Of a stretch of DNA of 64,000 nucleotides, positions 1,142 to 13,381 are shown one piece after another (position 1 is the first letter of the stretch; each line of letters begins with the position of its first letter). The stretch is from Escherichia phage LF82-41, in sequence record PV660463; one strand, 5' to 3'. The position numbers and the translations under genes are program-made. The notes beneath the pieces were generated by a model. That model searched no databases, was not told where the DNA came from, and saw only the letters and a program-made list of their open reading frames with translations.

Positions 1142-1381
1142 TTATTTGAATTTCTTGGCAATGTTGGTATACCGTAAAGCTTCAGCATCGATACTTCCAA
1201 GAACACTGTGAAGAAATGCATCAGCGTAGTATTCCAATCGAACAGGTTCTTTAATCATTTTAGCCGCTTTGGTTTCAAACAGGCCCATAAGGGCCTTTTT
1301 AAGAATTTGTTCGCTGCTGTTAATTTTTATAGTCAAAATCTCTTCGTTAAGTTGGTGGTTAAAAGTTTTTCTAGAAATCAT
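1142..1381 (-). CDS. hypothetical protein (79 aa)
   Basis: ORF in same orientation, ATGA overlap with upstream gene; no recognisable motif. Confidence 0.55.
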   Translation of the reverse strand: MISRKTFNHQLNEEILTIKINSSEQILKKALMGLFETKAAKMIKEPVRLEYYADAFLHSVLGSIDAEALRYTNIAKKFK

Positions 1382-2538
1382 TCTGGGTACCTCAAAGCGT
1401 CATCAGAGTTAGTTATATCAATAATAGATATAGAGTTTTCTGCTAACCCGTTTTTAGATAACTGACGTTTATAATATCTTTCACAATATGTACACGTCGT
1501 CCCACAGATTTCATTAGCACAATCGAAATCTGGATGTCTGAACCACCTTTTTTCTAAAAAGCCATCTAACAAAGAGGTTTCAATATTTACTGTATGTGAA
1601 AACTCAGTTTCATTTTCAAGAGTGAAAATAGTCTCTAAAGGCTTCCACAGTTCTAACAAATTACCTTCAAACTTTTCAGAAGCGTATGCTTCAAGAACTT
1701 TCAAAATGTAGTCTGTGCTACCTGTACGTCCTGAAACTTTGAATTGAGTGATACCAATATCATTATAAAGTTTCAAATCTTGAGGACGAACAAAACGAGT
1801 TCTCAACCAGTTAAATGGGTCTGTATCACGAGCTTTAATACAGTGCTGCATAGGATACCCATTTAAGGATTTAGCATCATCAGCGGTAACATCAGTACTA
1901 TGGAAAATATAGCAAGAGTCACGATAACTACAATGTGTTGTATACCCTTTACCAGCATTAGAACAGAACTCATTTACAAGAACTTCAAATATTATATTGT
2001 TCTTATTGCAAAACTCTGCTGCACGCTTCAGGAAAGAAACTGAACGGTTCTTATGAATTCCGCAACAGACCTTTTTGATGTTATATTGGTCGTGCAAGTA
2101 TTTGATTTGAGTTACAGCATCGACATGTAGAATTGTTGAAACTTCAATCTCAATATCTTTATTGACTTCACGAACAATTTCCATAACAACAGGGTTAGCG
2201 ATAGTAATACGCCATACGCCTATTGACCAAAGATACTGAACATAATCCTGAATAGCTTTCTTCTTCCACTCAACTAGTTCTCTTTTTGAACCAGGATTTA
2301 TCGTGTTGAGTGTATAGTTAAAGCAAATACCTAATTCGTTACAACGTTTAACGTAGTCTTCTAACATCTTTTTGTCAACGTCAGGAAGCCTAAAATCAGG
2401 TCTGGCTGCTACAAAAGCCATTTCTCTTGTAGAGCCATATACTTCGTTTATCAAGCTATTAGGATAAGTTTTATTGAGCTCTACGATTTTATCAAGAAGA
2501 GCTAAATCAAAATTCGTTCCGATTTTAAAAGTATTCAT
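1378..2538 (-). CDS. Cys-rich enzyme of unknown function, possible peptidase-U32-family-like (Fe-S) fold
   Basis: 386 aa; segments NYTLNT, STILHVD, EVLVNEFCSNAGKGYTTHCSYRDSC, FKVSGR resemble U32-family blocks; C-terminal CxxxxCGTTCTYC cluster. Assignment by eye only. Confidence 0.85.
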   Translation of the reverse strand: MNTFKIGTNFDLALLDKIVELNKTYPNSLINEVYGSTREMAFVAARPDFRLPDVDKKMLEDYVKRCNELGICFNYTLNTINPGSKRELVEWKKKAIQDYVQYLWSIGVWRITIANPVVMEIVREVNKDIEIEVSTILHVDAVTQIKYLHDQYNIKKVCCGIHKNRSVSFLKRAAEFCNKNNIIFEVLVNEFCSNAGKGYTTHCSYRDSCYIFHSTDVTADDAKSLNGYPMQHCIKARDTDPFNWLRTRFVRPQDLKLYNDIGITQFKVSGRTGSTDYILKVLEAYASEKFEGNLLELWKPLETIFTLENETEFSHTVNIETSLLDGFLEKRWFRHPDFDCANEICGTTCTYCERYYKRQLSKNGLAENSISIIDITNSDDALRYPE

Positions 2539-2595: not shown

Positions 2596-2982
2596 TTATA
2601 GATTCGGTTTATATGATTTAAATGTTTCGAATTCGCCTTTATTCATAAGAGCTTTGAATTCGTCAGGACGCATAGCTTTGTCGTCGATAATCCAATCATA
2701 TACTGGTTTATGTGTTAGCAAATTATGGTACTTCAAACCAATGTTTTCCAAGTTCTGAATCAGACTTGGGAGAATGTCAATTGCTATACGTCCAGGACCT
2801 ACTGACTTCATACCGCGAGCAGTGTAAAGCGTTATGGTATGCCCTGCATCATACAGGGCATTAATGGCGGTCACCATTTCGACGTCTGGTTTGAAGTTCA
2901 CGTAATCACGATTGTTATTCCACTCTGTTATACAATCATCGACATCAAAACAAAGATTAAGCATGTTTTCTACACGGTGCAT
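2596..2982 (-). CDS. HAD-superfamily phosphatase (small)
   Basis: Motif I FDVDDCIT near N-terminus, motif II ITLYTAR, motif IV WIIDD; start ATG at 2982 couples to upstream stop as TAATG. Confidence 0.75.
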   Translation of the reverse strand: MHRVENMLNLCFDVDDCITEWNNNRDYVNFKPDVEMVTAINALYDAGHTITLYTARGMKSVGPGRIAIDILPSLIQNLENIGLKYHNLLTHKPVYDWIIDDKAMRPDEFKALMNKGEFETFKSYKPNL

Positions 2983-4667
2983 TAGATTCGTTCCCATTGA
3001 TGAGTGATATCGCCACCGATTGGACGATAAGAAACACCAGTTTCTTTATCAGTTAGTACCCATTTACCAGGATTTTTTGTAATCAGAGTAGCCGTTACAG
3101 GTTCTGCTACGTCATAACTAATAGAGCCGTCTTGAAGTACACGGCCCATGTTATGTAATTGCTTAGTCAGAAGTTCCATACCTTTATAATATGCGGCTAC
3201 CGCTTTAAGTGGATTATTCTTGAAATAACCACCTAATGCAATCCAGATAATTGCTACAGCCAAATGATGATACTCGTTAAACGAACTCATCTTTCCATAT
3301 TTGTAAACTAATGGATTGATGTTAATAGTCACATTACAAGTTGTTTCATCAATAGTAAACTGTCCCCAGGTCGGATTAGCATTGAATTCATCATAACCTG
3401 AAACAGCATAAAGCACTTTAGCTTCATCATATAATTTTGGCCCGTAAATCTTGGTTTCACCAAAATATCCACGAGGGTCGATAAACTTGACTTCGCCGTT
3501 ATCAGTAATCATAGTATTACTGAAGTTTGGGTCGCCGTGAATAACAGAGTACTGTCCCTGAGAACGGTTATGATAACGAATAAGATGTTCTAAAGCTTGT
3601 TTCAACATTGGCTTCAGACGTCCAATCTTAGTGTAGTTCACGTGTGTGATTTTACCAAATGAATCAATCAATGGCTGAATGCTTTCACAACGATCAATAA
3701 CTTTCGTATAGAACTCTTTAGTGAAATCACGGCGAACAGTTTCAGGACTTACAAAATAAGTGTCTGTGCTGAATTTCAGTGCATCTAAAATTGCATCAAC
3801 AATTTGTGGACGAGCAAGACTTGATTTGGATTTAATATATTCAAATGCCGGCTTACCTTTAATACGTTCCATTTCAAAATTATTTTCATTTACCGAAACT
3901 AACTGTGGAACTGAATCTGATTTCACTTTCAAATACCACGAAATCTCATCTTTCTGAAGAGCCCGTCCCTGTTCGGTTAATGCGAATTTAGTTACAGTTT
4001 CTTCACCAATTTCAACTGCATTAAAACTACGATTAAGTTCACGAACTTCATGAGCTTTTTCAAGTTTAGGCATATCACCTAAATCAATTATATTCATAAG
4101 CTCTGATTTATTGAATGCGCCGCTGTAAAGGAATTCTACGAAATCACGTCCTTTGCAGTATTCATGAATTTCCTCATCAGTAGAACCCATATAGAATTCC
4201 CAGTCTTTGAACTGATAAATTCCTACAACATTACCACCTGTTGAACCTACGTTAGTGATATTTTCACCGTCGAAATTATATCGACATTCGTCACCCTTAA
4301 CATAGATTGCGTTAACATTCCAAGACCATGAACCAAAATCAGGAATAATATCGCACCAGTTAACAACTACGTTATGGCCGTCTAAATCTTTATGTAATTT
4401 AGCAAGAGCATAAGCAGAACCATACGCTTCATCAACTGTACGAATAGTCACATTGAACCCTTCTTGCTCACAATAAGCTCGAACGGTTTCAGCAAATTTT
4501 GAATGAACTACTACAATAATTTCATCTGCGCCAAGGTCAGAATAAATTGTATACAAATTGCTCAGAATAGTGTCTTGTTTATAGTTAACAAGCACCTTAG
4601 GAATATGGTGAGTAATTGGATATAAACGAGTTGCTAATCCAGCACCAAGAATAACAGCTTTTTTCAT
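2982..4667 (-). CDS. bifunctional sugar-1-phosphate nucleotidyltransferase (N-term) / APH-type anomeric sugar kinase (C-term)
   Basis: 561 aa; N-term AVILGAGLATRLYPIT (RmlA/MurU-type G-x-G-T-R-L loop); C-term VIHGDPNFSNTMITDNGEVKFIDPRG (kinase HGD..N and D motifs, AmgK/LicA-like). Confidence 0.85.
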   Translation of the reverse strand: MKKAVILGAGLATRLYPITHHIPKVLVNYKQDTILSNLYTIYSDLGADEIIVVVHSKFAETVRAYCEQEGFNVTIRTVDEAYGSAYALAKLHKDLDGHNVVVNWCDIIPDFGSWSWNVNAIYVKGDECRYNFDGENITNVGSTGGNVVGIYQFKDWEFYMGSTDEEIHEYCKGRDFVEFLYSGAFNKSELMNIIDLGDMPKLEKAHEVRELNRSFNAVEIGEETVTKFALTEQGRALQKDEISWYLKVKSDSVPQLVSVNENNFEMERIKGKPAFEYIKSKSSLARPQIVDAILDALKFSTDTYFVSPETVRRDFTKEFYTKVIDRCESIQPLIDSFGKITHVNYTKIGRLKPMLKQALEHLIRYHNRSQGQYSVIHGDPNFSNTMITDNGEVKFIDPRGYFGETKIYGPKLYDEAKVLYAVSGYDEFNANPTWGQFTIDETTCNVTININPLVYKYGKMSSFNEYHHLAVAIIWIALGGYFKNNPLKAVAAYYKGMELLTKQLHNMGRVLQDGSISYDVAEPVTATLITKNPGKWVLTDKETGVSYRPIGGDITHQWERI

Positions 4668-4708
4668 GTTGAAGTCCTCATCGGTAAGTAGGTGTATTGT
4701 ACACTATT

Positions 4709-4852
4709 CTAGTTAAAGCATTCATACTTTGCCTGTAGACCAATCATAATCCATCCAATTACAAGTGTTGGAATCATTACCGGAGCCGTTAAGCTCCAGT
4801 AGATAGTCATGACAAGCATCAATAGTAAAAGTCCTATTGTTATTGCTTTCAT
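4709..4852 (-). CDS. small hydrophobic membrane protein (47 aa), not in supplied ORF track
   Basis: ATG overlaps stop of isomerase gene (ATGA); translation MKAITIGLLLLMLVMTIYWSLTAPVMIPTLVIGWIMIGLQAKYECFN is predicted to span the membrane; fills otherwise empty 180 bp gap. Confidence 0.4.
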   Translation of the reverse strand: MKAITIGLLLLMLVMTIYWSLTAPVMIPTLVIGWIMIGLQAKYECFN

Positions 4853-5484
4853 TGCTCGCCTCGTAACATGGCACCTAGTGCACCGCCTGGATGGAACTTA
4901 AGGAAATCATTAGAGGTAAATCCACGTTCAGATGAAAGGTTGATAGCGAACGTATCGATAAGCGCTAACAACAATGTAGTAGACATCGTCGGAGCTAAAG
5001 AGTTCTCGTCAACTTCTACCGCGATACCGGTACAGAACGTATAATCAAAAAGAGCTTCGTATTCTTGTGGAATGTCAGGGTTACAATGTAACAGAATCTG
5101 TTTAACCTGAGGACGAATCATACGAAGATGTTTAGCAACACCTATCATTTCTTCAGTCTTACCGGAACGACTGATGTGAACTAATACATCATTAGGTGCA
5201 ATAAATCCTGCGTCACCATGAGAATAATGCCCAGTGTTCAAATACATGCTAGGAATACCTAGTGAAGCAAATGTCTCAGAAGCTTTAGTTGCAATATTAG
5301 CATTCTTACCAACACCTGTAATAATTACTCGGCTTTCATAATTACTCAGTCCAGGGCGTCGAAGAGTTTCTAGAATAGCATTATAACGAGCAGGGTTTTG
5401 ACTAATTACTTTGGCCATAGCGGCCAAAGAAGAAGCTTGTTTTATGATTGCGTCAATAGCGATAGTAATAGGAGTAGTTTTCAT
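4849..5484 (-). CDS. SIS-domain sugar-phosphate isomerase, KdsD/GutQ-like arabinose-5-phosphate isomerase (no CBS domains)
   Basis: 211 aa; VIITGVGKNANIATKASETFASLGIPSMYLNTGHYSHGDAGFI and C-terminal HPGGALG match KdsD SIS-domain blocks. Confidence 0.8.
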   Translation of the reverse strand: MKTTPITIAIDAIIKQASSLAAMAKVISQNPARYNAILETLRRPGLSNYESRVIITGVGKNANIATKASETFASLGIPSMYLNTGHYSHGDAGFIAPNDVLVHISRSGKTEEMIGVAKHLRMIRPQVKQILLHCNPDIPQEYEALFDYTFCTGIAVEVDENSLAPTMSTTLLLALIDTFAINLSSERGFTSNDFLKFHPGGALGAMLRGEQ

Positions 5485-5524: not shown

Positions 5525-8236
5525 TCAAAAATCAAACATATCGAACAGAGATGCTTTCTTCTCGTAATCGAGTTTCGCTGCTGATGTGAATCCTTCAAGT
5601 GGTTTAATAAATGTCTTCTCAAGGAGAACAGTGTAGTCCATCCAATGAAGTACGTCGTCTTTAATTAAATCTGTGATTTCAGTACCAGAAGGCCATGCGA
5701 TACATTTATCACCGAACGGGTTTCCTTCACGTAAAGGCAGAACATATACTTTTTCACCTTCTACAACTTGTGGAGCATCAATATTACCTTTGATAGCTCG
5801 GTTATATGTCAGAATTCCACGAATATGGAACGGGCATTTGGGACCAGGGAATCCACCTACATCATATTTAGCAATGTTATTCGCAGAAGATACCGACGCG
5901 ATGCTAATATAATTCAATTGACGGAATTCTTTTTCAAACTCTTTAAAATATTCTTGTAATGATTCTTCACCTTCCTGAAGCATACGACGAATACATTCCT
6001 TAAGAGCTTTCTGTACTGCTTTAGGAGTCGAAGATTTCTGAGTCTCTAGACCCATGATTTTGAGTTTAGGCTCAGCGTAACGAGTACCTTCCATATCCCA
6101 CACGTTTAATGCATAACGTTTCTTACCAGTCCAGAATCCGCCAATACCTTTAGAACCAAGCGGAGGACCAGCGATAGCTTCTCGGTCCATGAACATTAAG
6201 TGTTGTTTATTGTTCATGTATTCACACATTTCACGGAAACCTTTATCAATAGCTGGTTCCATACGTTCACGTGCGAACTTATCTAAGAAGTCTACCCAAT
6301 GGTTGGTATCACGGAATTTAGATTCACCAACCTTATCGATAATTTTATCAGCAGATACGTAAATAGAGTCTGTATCACCATAAAGAACGAAAGCTTCACC
6401 TTCTGTACCACAAACTTCATTCAGATATTCATTAACTTTACGTTCAATCCACTGTAAAGCCATTTGACCAAATGTTGTGATTGCAGTAGCATTACGCAAA
6501 TCATAATAACGGAACCAAACGTTACCAAGTGCACCATAAAGCGAGTTGATGAGCAATTTACGGTTAATTTGTGCAGTCATACCTGCAACTTCAGTACGTT
6601 GAGCTCTAAACAACATTTCATTAAGAGATTTAGCAGACAACTTTTTAATCTTTTCTTTAATCTCATCGCTGAAGTCGAAACGATAATCAACATCTAATGG
6701 TTCGTCAACAGAAAGATTAGGATTATGCAATGCCTCTTTAATTATTTCACCATTACGTTGAGCTGCAAGCATGTAACCTTTATGTTCTTTACGTTGATTA
6801 AAGACCTTAGTGATTTCAGTTGGAACTACACCATCACGGTCTTTATAATACATCATGCCGTTAGGAGAGCAACTGTACACATCTGAAGGACGTTCAGCGA
6901 TTGCGTTAATATAATCATGCAGTGGAGCTACTTTAAACGTTCCTGCTATTGTTTCCGGGCTAATATTCACTTGGCGAATAATACTTGGATACAGGGATGT
7001 AAGGTCGAAACTCATTACATATTTGTATCGATTTGGAATAGGTTCCTTAACAAAAGCACCTGGATAAGGTTGAACCGGGTGAGAACGACCTTGTGGAATC
7101 ACCTTGCTCTGCTCTTTAAGGCTATTAAAAATAATAGCATCCCATGTTTTAATTGGGCTAAACACAGATTGAATCTGTATCTTAGCATAATAACCCATGT
7201 CCAAACTCAAGTTGATGAACTGACGCTTAGCATCAATTTGCAATACACGATACACGTCGATAATGTTATAAGAAATATACCGTTGGTGATTGCTTTCACG
7301 AAGCTTAGAAATAGGGCCGTCATATTTCAGTTTACCAACATTCAATTCAAATTCTGAAATGTAATCCAGAGAATACGACGGTTGATTGGTAAAAGAGAAT
7401 TTTTTGTAAAGGTCAATGTAATCAAGAACAGAGATACCGAACATTGTAATGATTTCACGAGAACCATACATGTTTTCGATAACTTTAACACGAGTTTTAC
7501 GATGTGGTGATAAACGTTTCGCAGTAGATTCGCCAAAAATATTCTTGATTCGGTTATACACATATGGAATATCAAATGACTCAACGTTCCATCCAGTCAA
7601 AATGACAGGAGTTTTCTGTTGCCAGAAGTTGAGATATTCCATCAACAATTCTTTTTCGTTATCGAACGGCATATAAATGATTTTATCGATAATTTCAGAT
7701 GGAACTTCATCACCGCCTTGTTCTTGAAGCTTAGCCGCAATTTCGATAGACCATTCTTCTACATTACCATACGGAGAATTCAATAGATCAAATACGTAGA
7801 ACCTGTCGTCAATTGAGTCATAATGGGTGATAGCATCAATCGGATGTTTTGCTTGTGACGGCTCAGGGAACCCATCCGGAGATGTTACTTCGATGTCGAA
7901 GTTAGCCACACGAATTTTTGTATGGTCGTATTTGATTTCATAGTTATAAGTGTCAGACAAATACGCCAATTTGAAATCGTCCATGCCAAGTGCTTCAAGT
8001 CCGATATCTTCCATGCGTTTAATCCATTGGGAGGCATCACGCATATTAGCGAACAACTTACGAGTACACGGTTTACCGTAGATATCGAAATATTTCGTAG
8101 CCTGACTTTCTGGACAATGAGCAAACAGTGATGGTTTATATTCTACTTCACGAGTACGTTCACGGCCATTAGAATCGATGTAACGTTCAAAAATTGAATC
8201 ACCAATCTGTTCAACCGTTAAGTAAAATTCTTTCAT
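5525..8236 (-). CDS. 43: DNA polymerase (family B)
   Basis: 903 aa; N-terminus MKEFYLTVEQIGDSIFERYID..., exonuclease and polymerase motifs (DIE, YGDTDS, KILINSLYG); synteny with regA/62/44/45. Confidence 0.97.
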   Translation of the reverse strand: MKEFYLTVEQIGDSIFERYIDSNGRERTREVEYKPSLFAHCPESQATKYFDIYGKPCTRKLFANMRDASQWIKRMEDIGLEALGMDDFKLAYLSDTYNYEIKYDHTKIRVANFDIEVTSPDGFPEPSQAKHPIDAITHYDSIDDRFYVFDLLNSPYGNVEEWSIEIAAKLQEQGGDEVPSEIIDKIIYMPFDNEKELLMEYLNFWQQKTPVILTGWNVESFDIPYVYNRIKNIFGESTAKRLSPHRKTRVKVIENMYGSREIITMFGISVLDYIDLYKKFSFTNQPSYSLDYISEFELNVGKLKYDGPISKLRESNHQRYISYNIIDVYRVLQIDAKRQFINLSLDMGYYAKIQIQSVFSPIKTWDAIIFNSLKEQSKVIPQGRSHPVQPYPGAFVKEPIPNRYKYVMSFDLTSLYPSIIRQVNISPETIAGTFKVAPLHDYINAIAERPSDVYSCSPNGMMYYKDRDGVVPTEITKVFNQRKEHKGYMLAAQRNGEIIKEALHNPNLSVDEPLDVDYRFDFSDEIKEKIKKLSAKSLNEMLFRAQRTEVAGMTAQINRKLLINSLYGALGNVWFRYYDLRNATAITTFGQMALQWIERKVNEYLNEVCGTEGEAFVLYGDTDSIYVSADKIIDKVGESKFRDTNHWVDFLDKFARERMEPAIDKGFREMCEYMNNKQHLMFMDREAIAGPPLGSKGIGGFWTGKKRYALNVWDMEGTRYAEPKLKIMGLETQKSSTPKAVQKALKECIRRMLQEGEESLQEYFKEFEKEFRQLNYISIASVSSANNIAKYDVGGFPGPKCPFHIRGILTYNRAIKGNIDAPQVVEGEKVYVLPLREGNPFGDKCIAWPSGTEITDLIKDDVLHWMDYTVLLEKTFIKPLEGFTSAAKLDYEKKASLFDMFDF

Positions 8237-11449: not shown

Positions 11450-11650
11450 TTATTCGTAGAAGTCGGTAACTGTCCATGCGGAATTGCGATTAGACATTAT
11501 TTTATTATACTCATCTTTAAAAGCAGATTTGAGCATTTGTTCAGTAACAATATGTTCTTCACCTGAAAATGTATTGGTCAAAACATATTTTTTAATTTCA
11601 GGGACAACGAGAAGATGTTGTCCGGTTGAATACTCCATGTTGTTCTCCAT
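11450..11650 (-). CDS. hypothetical protein (45.2-like by position)
   Basis: 66 aa ORF between rpbA and 46. Confidence 0.5.
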   Translation of the reverse strand: MENNMEYSTGQHLLVVPEIKKYVLTNTFSGEEHIVTEQMLKSAFKDEYNKIMSNRNSAWTVTDFYE

Positions 11651-11692
11651 TTAATTTGATGTGGTCATTATAACCACATCGTGTTAAAGCGT

Positions 11693-13381
11693 TTATGAAA
11701 CAGTCATTACCGTAAATCGTCCAACTTTGCTCATCTGAAGATGTTGTCCATAAGCTTGTGGGTCATGGTCTCTGTGACTAATTATAAACACGTTTGCATC
11801 GGTTAGAGAGTTAAGAATTGTTGAAATAGCTTTAATACCTTCAGAATCAGTCGCGGAATCCATGACTTCGTCCATAATTAATGTATTGATTCTAACACCA
11901 GAGACCTTTTCAGCAATATCTCGCCATGTAAACAACAATGCGATATCGATACGTGCCTTTTCACCTTGACTAAATGAAGCATAACTAAAATCTTCACGAC
12001 CACGTGATTTTATAGATTCATTGAATTCTTCATCAATAGAAAACACGTAATCGGCTTCCATGATTTTAAGATAATGGTTAATCTGCTTGTTGAACAGAGG
12101 CACATATTTTTTAATGATAGCACCTTTAATACCAGAATCTTTTAACATATCTGTGATAATACCACGATGGTATTTTTCAAGAACGATATCTGATTTTGTT
12201 TTAATGATTTTATCAAGTTCTTTTTGAAGCAAAGCTATCTCATCGGCATGGTCGATAAATTCCGCCGAGGCTTGCTCTATTGCAGCTTTAACTTTCTTAG
12301 CTTTATCAATAGTGGCAATCATTGCTTGTTTCTTGGTACGGATATCGGATGCAAGGTCCTGTTTAGTCTTAACATTAGCTCGATATTCGTCCACTAGGAC
12401 ACTCAGATTATCTCTGTGGCAGGTAAGTTGCTCGAATGAGTGATTACATTCATGAAGCTTATCGGTAATCTTAGAGACAATAGGGTCACCCTGGTGCAAC
12501 TGTGATGCGCAAGTAGGACATGTACCGCCATCATGATACATCTTAATAACTTTGTTATATGAGTCAATTTTAGATTTAATCAAGAATGCCTCTTGTCCGA
12601 TCTTGTTGAATGCCTCAGTAGGGTCTTCGTCAAGAACGATATTAAGTAGACGCTCGTTAGCTTCTTCAATTTCTGCTTTTAATGAACGAGCTTCTTTGGC
12701 TAGGTCGTCATACATATTCTGTAGACGCGCTACATTATCGCCAGATAATTTCTTTTGACGTTCGATATTCTCGTTATAAATCTTAATTTGTTGGATAATA
12801 CCATCTTTCTTGGCATCGAGAACTTGTCCCTGGGAATTAAGTTCTCGAACTTGAGACTTATTGATTTTATCCATTTCAGCTAGTGTTCCAACTTCTAATA
12901 AGTCTTCAACAAGCTTTCTGCGAGCAGGGGTGCTAAGAGCCATGAAAGGGGTATACCCTGCCGTCCCAAGCACAACGATCTGTTTAAAAGACGCGTATGA
13001 CATTCCGATGCTACGTTCAAATTCTTCTTGGAAGTCACGACTGCTGGCAGATTCATCAAGACGAACACCGTCAACGGAGATTTCGAAAATATTGGGCTTT
13101 TGGCCTCGTTTAATGAAGTATTTTTTATCATCGAATTCCATCCAAAGCTCAACTAAGAGCTCTTTCTTGTTCGTGCTATTAATGATTTGTCCTTTCTTAA
13201 CATCACGAAATGGTTTACCGAAAAGTCCGAAAGTAATGGCTTCTAACATCGTAGATTTACCACCACCATTTTTACCAGTGATTAATGTCTTTTGGACTTT
13301 ATCTAATTGGATATCAATAGGATTCCCACCTACCGACATGATGTTTTGATAACGAACACGATTTAATTTAAATGATTTCAT
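11693..13381 (-). CDS. 46: recombination endonuclease subunit (SbcC/Rad50-like ATPase)
   Basis: 562 aa; Walker A GKNGGGKST, long coiled coil, C-terminal signature/Walker B region. Confidence 0.95.
   Translation of the reverse strand: MKSFKLNRVRYQNIMSVGGNPIDIQLDKVQKTLITGKNGGGKSTMLEAITFGLFGKPFRDVKKGQIINSTNKKELLVELWMEFDDKKYFIKRGQKPNIFEISVDGVRLDESASSRDFQEEFERSIGMSYASFKQIVVLGTAGYTPFMALSTPARRKLVEDLLEVGTLAEMDKINKSQVRELNSQGQVLDAKKDGIIQQIKIYNENIERQKKLSGDNVARLQNMYDDLAKEARSLKAEIEEANERLLNIVLDEDPTEAFNKIGQEAFLIKSKIDSYNKVIKMYHDGGTCPTCASQLHQGDPIVSKITDKLHECNHSFEQLTCHRDNLSVLVDEYRANVKTKQDLASDIRTKKQAMIATIDKAKKVKAAIEQASAEFIDHADEIALLQKELDKIIKTKSDIVLEKYHRGIITDMLKDSGIKGAIIKKYVPLFNKQINHYLKIMEADYVFSIDEEFNESIKSRGREDFSYASFSQGEKARIDIALLFTWRDIAEKVSGVRINTLIMDEVMDSATDSEGIKAISTILNSLTDANVFIISHRDHDPQAYGQHLQMSKVGRFTVMTVS

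What the first reader, a model, noticed from the sequence alone, without database searches (positions are those of the whole stretch)
4709..4852. Unannotated 47-codon membrane ORF coupled to the isomerase gene
The 180-bp gap between the isomerase and the NT/kinase gene contains an ATGA-coupled ORF encoding a very hydrophobic 47-aa peptide. T4 carries the membrane immunity protein Imm in this interval, so this may be a superinfection-exclusion or membrane-anchoring factor missed by the 60-aa cutoff.
Basis: seen in the sequence. Interest (0 to 1): 0.4.

Follow-up and report, generated by a model that had tools for sequence, protein, structure and literature searches.

The report
Known T-even small membrane protein gene
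The 47-codon ORF is a real, strongly conserved gene for a tiny membrane protein of T4-like phages (the T4 "Y02C"/gp42.1 family); the family is already catalogued, its function is unknown, and it is not the Imm immunity protein.

Summary
Window 4709..4852 (-) is an intact 47-codon ORF. Its ATG overlaps the TGA stop of the arabinose-5-phosphate isomerase gene (ATGA), a GAGG lies 6 nt upstream, and the product is very hydrophobic.

It is not new and, in most public records, not unannotated. It matches PHROG 3610 over its full length (E 7e-27). Its relatives carry Pfam PF26865 "Phage_T4_Y02C". The identical protein occurs on 137 public contigs, and RB69ORF054c is in the same cluster.

Homologues of 45-50 aa occur in at least eight T-even lineages. 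In every locus examined the start makes the same ATGA overlap with the upstream gene, which is either imm (T4, RB33, VR7, SP18, Bp7) or the isomerase. Synonymous sites are saturated while dN/dS is about 0.1-0.3, and only this frame stays open.

It has no homology to Imm (hhalign probability 1%). Mosigviruses keep imm about 10.7 kb away, and Yersinia phage TG1 has Y02C but no Imm.

The last codons (C-F-N-stop) also form a MotA-box middle promoter (TGCTTTA-N12-TACAAT) for the downstream nucleotidyltransferase/kinase gene.

The function is untested. An autonomous small inner-membrane modulator is my best guess. The finding is ordinary and already known.

The parts
4709..4852 (-). Gene for a 47-aa small membrane protein, orthologue of T4 Y02C / gp42.1 (PHROG 3610, Pfam PF26865 Phage_T4_Y02C, RB69ORF054c). 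The stop codon TAG is 4711..4709.
   Evidence: ORF and translation. PHROG 3610 full-length match, E 6.8e-27. PF26865 on relatives. Identical protein on 137 contigs. Purifying selection and frame conservation.
4849..4852 (-). ATGA junction: the start codon of the small gene overlaps the TGA stop of the isomerase gene, a termination-reinitiation coupling site.
   Evidence: Sequence. The same ATGA overlap with the upstream gene occurs in all 15 loci checked, whichever gene is upstream.
4859..4862 (-). Shine-Dalgarno-like GAGG, 6 nt upstream of the ATG and inside the end of the isomerase gene.
   Evidence: Several other lineages have a weak or no SD here (Bp7, MY742, PEi26). This suggests that coupling, not the SD, is the conserved feature.
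4849..5484 (-). Upstream gene: SIS-domain D-arabinose-5-phosphate isomerase (RB69 gp55 type).
   Evidence: PHROG 5670 E 2.6e-116. Pfam SIS. Role in the pathway: PMC13326640.
4696..4720 (-). MotA-type middle promoter. The MotA box TGCTTTA (4720..4714) lies in the codons for C-F-N, followed by a 12-bp spacer and the -10 TACAAT (4701..4696). It points at the NT/kinase gene.
   Evidence: Pattern match. Consensus and 12+/-1 spacing: PMC2988021. Conserved in the window/Mosig group, MY742, PEi26, TG1 and X20, but degenerate in phiR1-RT and replaced in L021. Absent in imm-type loci, which use TGT for Cys with one exception. Predicted in RB69 as Pm:29842 by Nolan et al. 2006.
4675..4679 (-). Shine-Dalgarno GAGGA of the downstream NT/kinase gene.
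   Evidence: Sequence.
2982..4667 (-). Downstream gene: bifunctional nucleotidyltransferase/kinase (RB69 gp52:53 type) of the NDP-arabinose pathway.
   Evidence: PHROG 4098 E 1.8e-294. Pfam NTP_transferase plus a weak kinase-like match. PMC6024577 and PMC13326640.

Best explanation
This is the Mosigvirus (RB69-group) orthologue of the T4 'Y02C'/gp42.1 gene, a conserved accessory gene of T-even phages that infect Enterobacterales. It encodes a 47-aa inner-membrane protein.

Shown by sequence and comparison:
- It is a real protein-coding gene under purifying selection.
- Its start always overlaps the stop of whichever gene lies upstream (ATGA). That gene is imm in some lineages and the arabinose-5-phosphate isomerase in others.

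Inferred (about 0.8):
- It is translated by termination-reinitiation coupling on the early/middle transcript that comes from the gene 43 region.
- It inserts into the inner membrane through a strong N-terminal helix (residues 3-21).
- A proline-kinked second hydrophobic segment (P24-x-M-I-P-T ... G-W, residues 25-39) and the conserved tail Q-x-K/R-Y/F-E/N/Q-C-F/I-N form the recognition surface.
- The topology is most likely a hairpin with both ends in the cytoplasm (K2 and K42). A single-pass N-in/C-out topology is not excluded.

Mechanism I commit to (about 0.3):
- It acts on its own as a small-protein modulator that binds a conserved inner-membrane target, either a host protein or a phage envelope-directed protein.
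- This would place it in the early envelope-directed gene set imm.1 lipoprotein / imm / Y02C.
- It acts independently of Imm and of the type of DNA modification.
For: - Identity: full-length match to PHROG 3610. Relatives at 94-96% identity and more distant ones carry PF26865 Phage_T4_Y02C. The T4 49-aa ORF is named 'Uncharacterized 5.6 kDa protein in Gp42-imm intergenic region', and RB69ORF054c is in the window protein's 90% cluster.
- Real gene: 20 loci have an intact ORF of 45-50 aa with invariant M1, I17, Y18, P24, M26, W34, Q40, C45 and N47. pS is 0.64-0.91 against pN 0.12-0.41. Only this frame is open in every locus.
- Coupling: the ATGA overlap is present in all 15 loci checked, despite two unrelated upstream genes and SDs that are often weak.
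- Membrane: GRAVY is 1.36, and dG for residues 3-21 is about -2 to -4 kcal/mol on the Hessa scale (values recalled). The second segment is marginal. AlphaFold2 gives one long helix over residues 2-42, pLDDT 92.
- Independence from Imm: mosigviruses keep imm.1-imm next to sp, about 10.7 kb away. The whole TG1 genome has Y02C but no Imm by tblastn, a custom HMM or Pfam, with positive controls that hit. Imm alone suffices for exclusion.
- Independence from modification type: present in glucosyl-hmC phages (T4), arabinosyl phages (this window, PEi26, TG1, X20) and Gapriverviruses, which lack known base-modification enzymes.
- Envelope gene neighbourhood: a lipoprotein of the Imm.1-like family flanks the gene in three different orders.
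- Promoter.
Against: - There is no experimental evidence of translation or function. The T4 omics study used an annotation that lacks the gene, and no paper mentioning it was found.
- The second hydrophobic segment is short, so the topology is unresolved. AlphaFold2 gives one straight helix rather than a hairpin.
- Part of the C-terminal conservation in isomerase-type phages could be DNA-level constraint from the MotA box. However, T4, VR7 and Bp7 keep the Y-E/N-C-F/I-N tail without the box.
- The 'autonomous modulator' mechanism rests on analogy and on excluding alternatives, not on a positive test.
- The persistent ATGA coupling to imm in four lineages, and the locus L022 where both imm and the isomerase are present and Y02C follows imm, still fit a functional link with Imm.
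Confidence: 0.7

Rival explanations
1. It is an accessory or second component of superinfection immunity. It would work with Imm (stabilising, positioning or tuning it in the inner membrane) or in parallel with it, to block DNA entry by secondary phages.
For: In T4, RB33, VR7, SP18, Bp7 and the metagenomic phage L022 the gene is ATGA-coupled directly to imm. In L022, which has both imm and the isomerase in the interval, it follows imm rather than the isomerase. An Imm.1-like lipoprotein is always nearby. It is a small inner-membrane protein, as many exclusion proteins are. Classical insertions in imm would be polar on it (inference).
Against: There is no sequence relationship to Imm. Imm expressed alone excludes T4 and binds the tape-measure protein. 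In mosigviruses the two genes are about 10.7 kb apart. TG1 keeps Y02C with no Imm in the genome. Imm-like genes occur in Klebsiella and Acinetobacter phage records, two host groups that do not appear among the most frequent hosts of Y02C tblastn matches.
Confidence: 0.2
2. It is a membrane tether or regulator for the DNA-modification pathway. It would anchor or tune the arabinose-5-phosphate isomerase, the NT/kinase or the gp42-type enzyme at the membrane.
For: It always lies between gene 43 and the base or sugar modification genes. In seven of the loci examined it is co-translated with the isomerase and sits directly upstream of the NT/kinase.
Against: It is equally conserved in T4 (glucosyl-hmC, no arabinose genes) and in Gapriverviruses, which have no known modification enzymes and no gene 42 next to it. 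Acinetobacter phage DLP3 has the same pathway as contiguous genes gp81-83, with no such gene mentioned. The published pathway needs no membrane step and omits gp54.
Confidence: 0.07
3. The peptide has no function. The open frame would be kept only as a translational bridge or spacer, and as the carrier of the middle promoter.
For: The last codons overlap a MotA box in isomerase-type phages, and the Cys codon is TGC there against TGT in all but one imm-type locus. There is no experimental evidence for the protein.
Against: The amino-acid sequence is under purifying selection along its whole length (dN/dS about 0.1-0.3 with saturated dS). Invariant residues lie far from the promoter (I17, Y18, P24, M26, W34). 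Lineages without the promoter keep the same C-terminal tail. Length and start are conserved across at least 8 lineages.
Confidence: 0.03

Closest known systems
T4 Y02C / gp42.1. UniRef name: 'Uncharacterized 5.6 kDa protein in Gp42-imm intergenic region'. Pfam PF26865 Phage_T4_Y02C, PHROG 3610. Annotated as '42.1' in RB33 and VR7, and as RB69ORF054c in RB69.
   Same: Orthologous. It aligns end to end at 53-60% identity with the same motifs (IY, TxPxMIPT, GW, QxKYEC[FI]N), has the same size and the same ATGA start overlap, and holds the same position between gene 43 and the gene-42-type gene.
   Different: The upstream partner here is the arabinose-5-phosphate isomerase, not imm. The downstream neighbour is the NT/kinase, separated by a 41-nt spacer that carries a middle promoter, instead of gene 42 eight nt away. 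The protein is 47 aa rather than 49 aa. Note that in the 1988 T4 record M37159 'ORF 42.1' meant imm itself.
T4 Imm, the superinfection immunity protein (Pfam PF14373)
   Same: Both are small early inner-membrane proteins encoded in the same genomic interval in T4. The two genes are translationally coupled in T4-, VR7- and Bp7-type phages.
   Different: There is no homology (hhalign probability 1%; no PF14373 hit although Imm controls hit). The protein is about half the size and lacks the LPW..AL.RG core. Imm's mechanism, binding the tape-measure protein, was shown with Imm alone. Nothing comparable is known for this protein.
Bacterial small inner-membrane regulator proteins such as AcrZ, MgrB, MgtS and KdpF. 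This is a functional analogy from my own knowledge and was not tested.
   Same: Size below 50 aa, one strong transmembrane helix, and a short conserved tail. They are thought to act by binding a larger membrane protein.
   Different: No sequence relationship was found. The protein is phage-encoded and its target is unknown.
T4-type MotA/AsiA-dependent middle promoters, e.g. PuvsX (applies to the promoter part only)
   Same: TGCTTTA box, 12-bp spacer and TAcaaT -10, as in the consensus (a/t)(a/t)(a/t)TGCTTtA-N12+/-1-TAtaaT. RB69 has MotA and AsiA orthologues, and this site was predicted as Pm:29842.
   Different: The MotA box lies inside the last codons of a protein-coding gene. Activity has not been measured.

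Membership tests
Phage_T4_Y02C (Pfam PF26865) / PHROG 3610 / gp42.1 | Significant full-length match to the family profile | tested here: met
   PHROG 3610 E 6.8e-27, residues 1-47 on profile positions 1-47 of 47. The precomputed PF26865 label is on cluster relatives at 94-96% identity and on distant members. My own hmmscan against the session's Pfam copy returned nothing, presumably because that copy lacks this recent model.
Phage_T4_Y02C (Pfam PF26865) / PHROG 3610 / gp42.1 | Length of 45-50 aa with the conserved motifs IY...P.M.PT..GW...Q.[KR][YF].C[FI][NW] | tested here: met
   Alignments A1 and A2 and the 20-locus alignment.
Phage_T4_Y02C (Pfam PF26865) / PHROG 3610 / gp42.1 | Syntenic position downstream of DNA polymerase gene 43, with the start overlapping the upstream stop (ATGA) | tested here: met
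Phage_T4_Y02C (Pfam PF26865) / PHROG 3610 / gp42.1 | The product is made and is located in the inner membrane | not testable with these tools
   Only hydropathy and AlphaFold2 predictions are available. The T4 omics data do not include the gene.
Imm superinfection immunity protein (Pfam PF14373) | Sequence or profile similarity to Imm | tested here: not met
   hhalign probability 1.0% over 8 columns. No PF14373 hit at E<=1, while T4 and JS09 Imm hit at about 1e-15.
Imm superinfection immunity protein (Pfam PF14373) | Protein of about 80 aa with the conserved LPW-AL-RG core between hydrophobic helices | tested here: not met
   The protein is 47 aa and has no such motif.
Imm superinfection immunity protein (Pfam PF14373) | Blocks DNA entry of superinfecting phage | not testable with these tools
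   This needs a plasmid-expression EOP or exclusion assay.
MotA-dependent middle promoter (3' end of the ORF) | MotA box (a/t)3TGCTTtA placed 12+/-1 bp upstream of a good -10 TAtaaT | tested here: met
   gaaTGCTTTA-N12-TACAAT at 4696..4720 (-). Consensus from PMC2988021. The window has 12 such matches against 3.8 expected. The motif is conserved in five isomerase-type lineages. It was predicted for RB69 as Pm:29842.
MotA-dependent middle promoter (3' end of the ORF) | MotA/AsiA-dependent transcription start about 7 nt downstream of the -10 | not testable with these tools
   This needs primer extension, 5'-RACE or cappable-seq in motA+ and motA- infections.

The most novel reading that the evidence does not exclude
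Y02C is an Imm-independent inner-membrane exclusion or DNA-entry-control factor of T-even phages. It would be a third superinfection-exclusion gene beside imm and sp, and the only inner-membrane one in Imm-less Tegunaviruses. It would have been overlooked because it is missing from the T4 reference annotation and yields almost no usable tryptic peptides.
Probability: 0.12. Interest if true: 0.55.

Novelty: already known. Interest (0 to 1): 0.2.

Why it matters
As a finding it mainly corrects the record. The ORF is a real gene that is already catalogued, and it is not Imm.

It has modest residual value. It belongs to the set of small T-even genes that are conserved and always translationally coupled, yet have no known function. 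It is absent from RefSeq T4 and JS09, is truncated to 36 aa in RB69, and is overwritten by a mis-called NT gene start in MY742. Omics and knockout studies built on those annotations cannot see it.

Anyone engineering the arabinose-modification cluster or imm should know two things. First, edits upstream are likely to be polar on this gene. Second, its last codons carry the predicted middle promoter for the NT/kinase gene.

Tried and rejected
- **Imm or Imm.1 in the window:** tblastn found neither in the 64-kb window. Imm was later located about 10.7 kb downstream in mosigviruses, outside the window.
- **Family libraries:** Pfam, NCBIfam and PADLOC scans of the peptide gave nothing.
- **Distant relatives:** an exhaustive profile search of 1.84 billion representatives gave only three true clusters plus one spurious repeat protein, P0018. 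There are no cellular relatives and no fusions.
- **IMG/VR scan:** it returned only 7 loci, all from the same genera.
- **AlphaFold2:** it gives one featureless helix, so a fold search was judged meaningless and was not run.
- **Literature:** searches for gp54, Y02C, PF26865 and for T4 Ribo-seq or small-protein evidence found nothing on this gene.
- **RNA hairpin after the stop codon:** it is not significant in the window (z = 0.23), although it is stronger in other genera.
- **Wasted or failed calls:** one tblastn with too strict an E-value, two malformed literature queries, and one request for an over-long region.
- **Holin or lysis role:** considered and dropped, given the early/middle transcriptional context and the small size. 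It was not tested.

Full report
**What the window is.** The region encodes the 903-aa RB69-type DNA polymerase (5525..8236, minus strand). Downstream on the same strand lie:
- a SIS-domain arabinose-5-phosphate isomerase (4849..5484);
- the 47-codon ORF (4709..4852);
- a 561-aa nucleotidyltransferase/kinase (2982..4667);
- a HAD-like phosphatase;
- a U32-like protein;
- a 79-aa ORF;
- a thymidylate-synthase-like gene.

Megablast finds 153 phage records at 90-99% identity, essentially all Mosigvirus. The best is Shigella phage SHSML-52-1. This is the gene cluster published for arabinosylated cytosine in RB69: gp55 isomerase, gp52:53 NT/kinase, gp51 phosphatase and gp48 synthase (PMC6024577, PMC13326640). 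Those papers never mention gp54, which is the small ORF.

**Checking the observation.**
- The ORF reads ATG...TAG at 4852..4709 on the minus strand and encodes MKAITIGLLLLMLVMTIYWSLTAPVMIPTLVIGWIMIGLQAKYECFN.
- The ATG overlaps the isomerase TGA (ATGA), and a GAGG lies 6 nt upstream.
- GRAVY is +1.36.

It is not a chance ORF. I extracted the homologous region from 20 loci:
- four Mosigvirus;
- six Tequatrovirus, including T4 and RB33;
- four Gaprivervirus, including VR7 and SP18;
- Dhakavirus Bp7;
- Tegunavirus TG1 and phiR1-RT;
- Kanagawavirus PEi26;
- Winklervirus X20;
- Enterobacter phage MY742.

Two more loci from other assemblies were added later. All have an intact frame of 45-50 codons that starts MK and ends Q-x-K/R-Y/F-E/N/Q-C-F/I-N/W. 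Between genera the synonymous differences are saturated (pS 0.64-0.91) while pN is 0.12-0.41, so dN/dS is roughly 0.06-0.3. The other five frames carry stops, apart from one alternative frame that happens to be stop-free in MY742.

**What it is.** The peptide matches PHROG 3610 over its whole length (E 6.8e-27). A profile search of 5.8 billion proteins returned only 16 clusters. All are from T4-like phages and all carry the precomputed Pfam label PF26865. Gene tables of related contigs give that family the name Phage_T4_Y02C.

T4 itself has a 49-codon homologue at NC_000866 26227..26376. It is ATGA-coupled to imm and ends 8 nt before gene 42. RefSeq does not annotate it, but UniRef names it 'Uncharacterized 5.6 kDa protein in Gp42-imm intergenic region'. 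RB33 and VR7 annotate the homologue as '42.1'.

The window's exact protein is on 137 public contigs. Its 90% cluster contains RB69ORF054c, which is a 36-aa short call. An exhaustive HMMER scan of 1.84 billion representatives found only three true 50%-identity clusters and no cellular relatives. So the gene is real but already known as an uncharacterised family. 'Unannotated' applies only to some records: T4 RefSeq, JS09 RefSeq, and MY742, where the NT gene start is mis-called across it.

**Relation to Imm.**
- In T4, RB33, VR7, SP18, Bp7 and the metagenomic phage L022, the gene immediately upstream, overlapping by ATGA, is imm.
- In Mosigvirus, MY742, PEi26, TG1, phiR1-RT, X20 and L021 the upstream gene is the isomerase, with the same ATGA overlap.
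- L022 has both imm and the isomerase in the interval, and there the small gene follows imm.

The peptide is not an Imm relative. Profile-profile probability is 1% and there is no PF14373 hit, while T4 and JS09 Imm controls hit at about 1e-15. Nor does it depend on Imm:
- Mosigviruses have imm.1-imm relocated next to sp, about 10.7 kb downstream and outside this window.
- I assembled the complete TG1 genome from five fetched pieces and found no Imm by tblastn, by a T-even Imm HMM run without filters, or by Pfam on all two-segment hydrophobic ORFs. TG1 nevertheless keeps the small gene.
- A 2026 preprint shows that Imm alone excludes T4 and binds the tape-measure protein gp29.

The gene is also not tied to one DNA modification. 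It is present in glucosyl-hmC phages, in arabinosyl phages, and in Gapriverviruses, which lack known base-modification enzymes. A lipoprotein family weakly related to T4 Imm.1 accompanies it in three different gene orders:
- imm.1-imm-Y02C in T4;
- imm-Y02C-lipoprotein in VR7, Bp7 and L022;
- lipoprotein-isomerase-Y02C in PEi26, MY742, X20 and L021.

**Anatomy and likely mode of action.**
- Residues 3-21 form a strong transmembrane helix, about -2 to -4 kcal/mol on the Hessa scale (scale values recalled from memory).
- Residues 25-39 are a shorter, proline-containing hydrophobic stretch of marginal insertion energy.
- The only charges are K2, K/R42 and sometimes E44. By the positive-inside rule this favours a hairpin with both ends in the cytoplasm. 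A single-pass N-in/C-out arrangement with a periplasmic Cys45 is not excluded.
- AlphaFold2 gives a single confident helix over residues 2-42 (pLDDT 92), which does not settle the topology.
- The invariant positions (I17, Y18, P24, M26, W34, Q40, C45, N47) point to a specific binding surface rather than a generic anchor.
- The universal ATGA overlap, with SDs that range from good (GAGG here) to absent (Bp7), argues for expression by termination-reinitiation coupling.

My best mechanistic guess, at about 0.3, is an autonomous small-protein modulator of an inner-membrane target. It would belong to the early envelope-directed gene set. The identity and gene-level statements I hold at about 0.85-0.95.

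**A second layer in the same bases.** The last codons and the 41-nt spacer contain gaaTGCTTTA-N12-TACAAT (4720..4696, minus strand). This is a canonical MotA-box middle promoter by the published consensus and its 12+/-1 spacing. It points at the NT/kinase gene.
- The window has 12 such matches against 3.8 expected.
- The motif is conserved in the window's Mosigvirus group, MY742, PEi26, TG1 and X20. It is degenerate in phiR1-RT and is replaced by a TGaTATAAT element in L021.
- It is absent where the next gene starts 8-12 nt after the stop (T4, VR7, SP18, Bp7, L022).
- The Cys codon is TGC in the promoter-bearing loci and TGT in all but one of the others.
- RB69 has MotA and AsiA orthologues, and Nolan et al. 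2006 predicted this very site as Pm:29842.
- The C-terminal peptide motif is kept in lineages without the promoter, so it is constrained at the protein level as well.

**Verdict.** But it is not unannotated in general, it is not an Imm homologue, and it is demonstrably separable from Imm. It is an already-catalogued gene family of unknown function, so interest is low (0.2). The most novel reading still open is an Imm-independent exclusion or entry-control factor (probability about 0.12).

Noticed in passing
window 4696..4720 (-): A MotA-box middle promoter (TGCTTTA-N12-TACAAT) is embedded in the last three codons and stop of the small ORF and points at the NT/kinase gene. It is conserved in isomerase-type lineages. 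Cys is TGC there, against TGT in all but one of the imm-type loci. It was predicted in RB69 as Pm:29842.
   Followed up: yes
window 4692..4704 (-); L013, L014, L015, L017, L018 just after the small-gene stop: A palindrome is centred on the -10 element. It is GTGTAcaaTACAC in the window (RNA fold -2.9 kcal/mol, z 0.23, not significant). In MY742, PEi26, TG1 and X20 it is an 8-11 bp stem ATGGTACA...TGTACCAT (-6 to -12 kcal/mol, z down to -4.3). Its role is unknown; it could be an RNA hairpin on read-through mRNA or a protein-binding site.
   Followed up: partly
L004 4228..4377 (-) = NC_000866 26227..26376; L019 about 1297..1440; L013 4979..6871: Annotation gaps. RefSeq T4 and RefSeq JS09 do not annotate the small gene. 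RB69 calls a 36-aa version from an internal Met. MY742 extends the NT/kinase CDS upstream across it in another frame.
   Followed up: yes
L019 (JS09) 11571..12606: In mosigviruses imm.1-imm sit between 61.4 and sp (spackle), about 10.7 kb downstream of the small gene. The two classical exclusion genes imm and sp are therefore adjacent there, unlike in T4.
   Followed up: partly
L002 3153..3656, L016 5131..5631, L022 6151..6648, L014 3870..4379, L013 3861..4388, L017 3914..4333, L021 4852..5379: A family of 139-175-aa lipoproteins with a lipobox L(S/T/A)GC. They are mutually related (E 1e-13 to 1e-77) and weakly related to T4 Imm.1 at the N-terminus. They flank the small gene on either side, depending on the genus.
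   Followed up: partly
KP202158.1 whole genome (L023, L015, L025, L027, L026): Yersinia phage TG1 has no detectable Imm homologue anywhere in its 162 kb, although it has MotA, AsiA, rI, rIII and the small Y02C gene.
   Followed up: yes
window 1142..1381 (-); L021 9684..9926: The 79-aa ORF lies between the U32-like gene and the thymidylate-synthase-like gene, the position that RB69ORF049c holds in the JS09 annotation. The gene in the corresponding position in L021 carries a Pfam CM_2 (chorismate-mutase type 2) label. Whether the window's ORF is related to it was not tested. Its role in the modification cluster is not described in the papers read.
   Followed up: no
window, whole: There are 12 matches to the MotA-type middle-promoter pattern against 3.8 expected from shuffles, mostly on the minus strand (e.g. 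12207, 14901, 22194, 35425, 49754).
   Followed up: no
tool note (vs 26, 52, 53): The session's Pfam-A copy gave no hit for the peptide, yet precomputed annotations assign PF26865 (Phage_T4_Y02C) to its close relatives. The local copy apparently lacks this recent model.
   Followed up: partly
L020 (M37159.1) 2259..2510: In the 1988 T4 record 'ORF 42.1' denotes imm and 'ORF 42.2' denotes imm.1. The label '42.1' is therefore ambiguous between old and newer annotations.
   Followed up: yes
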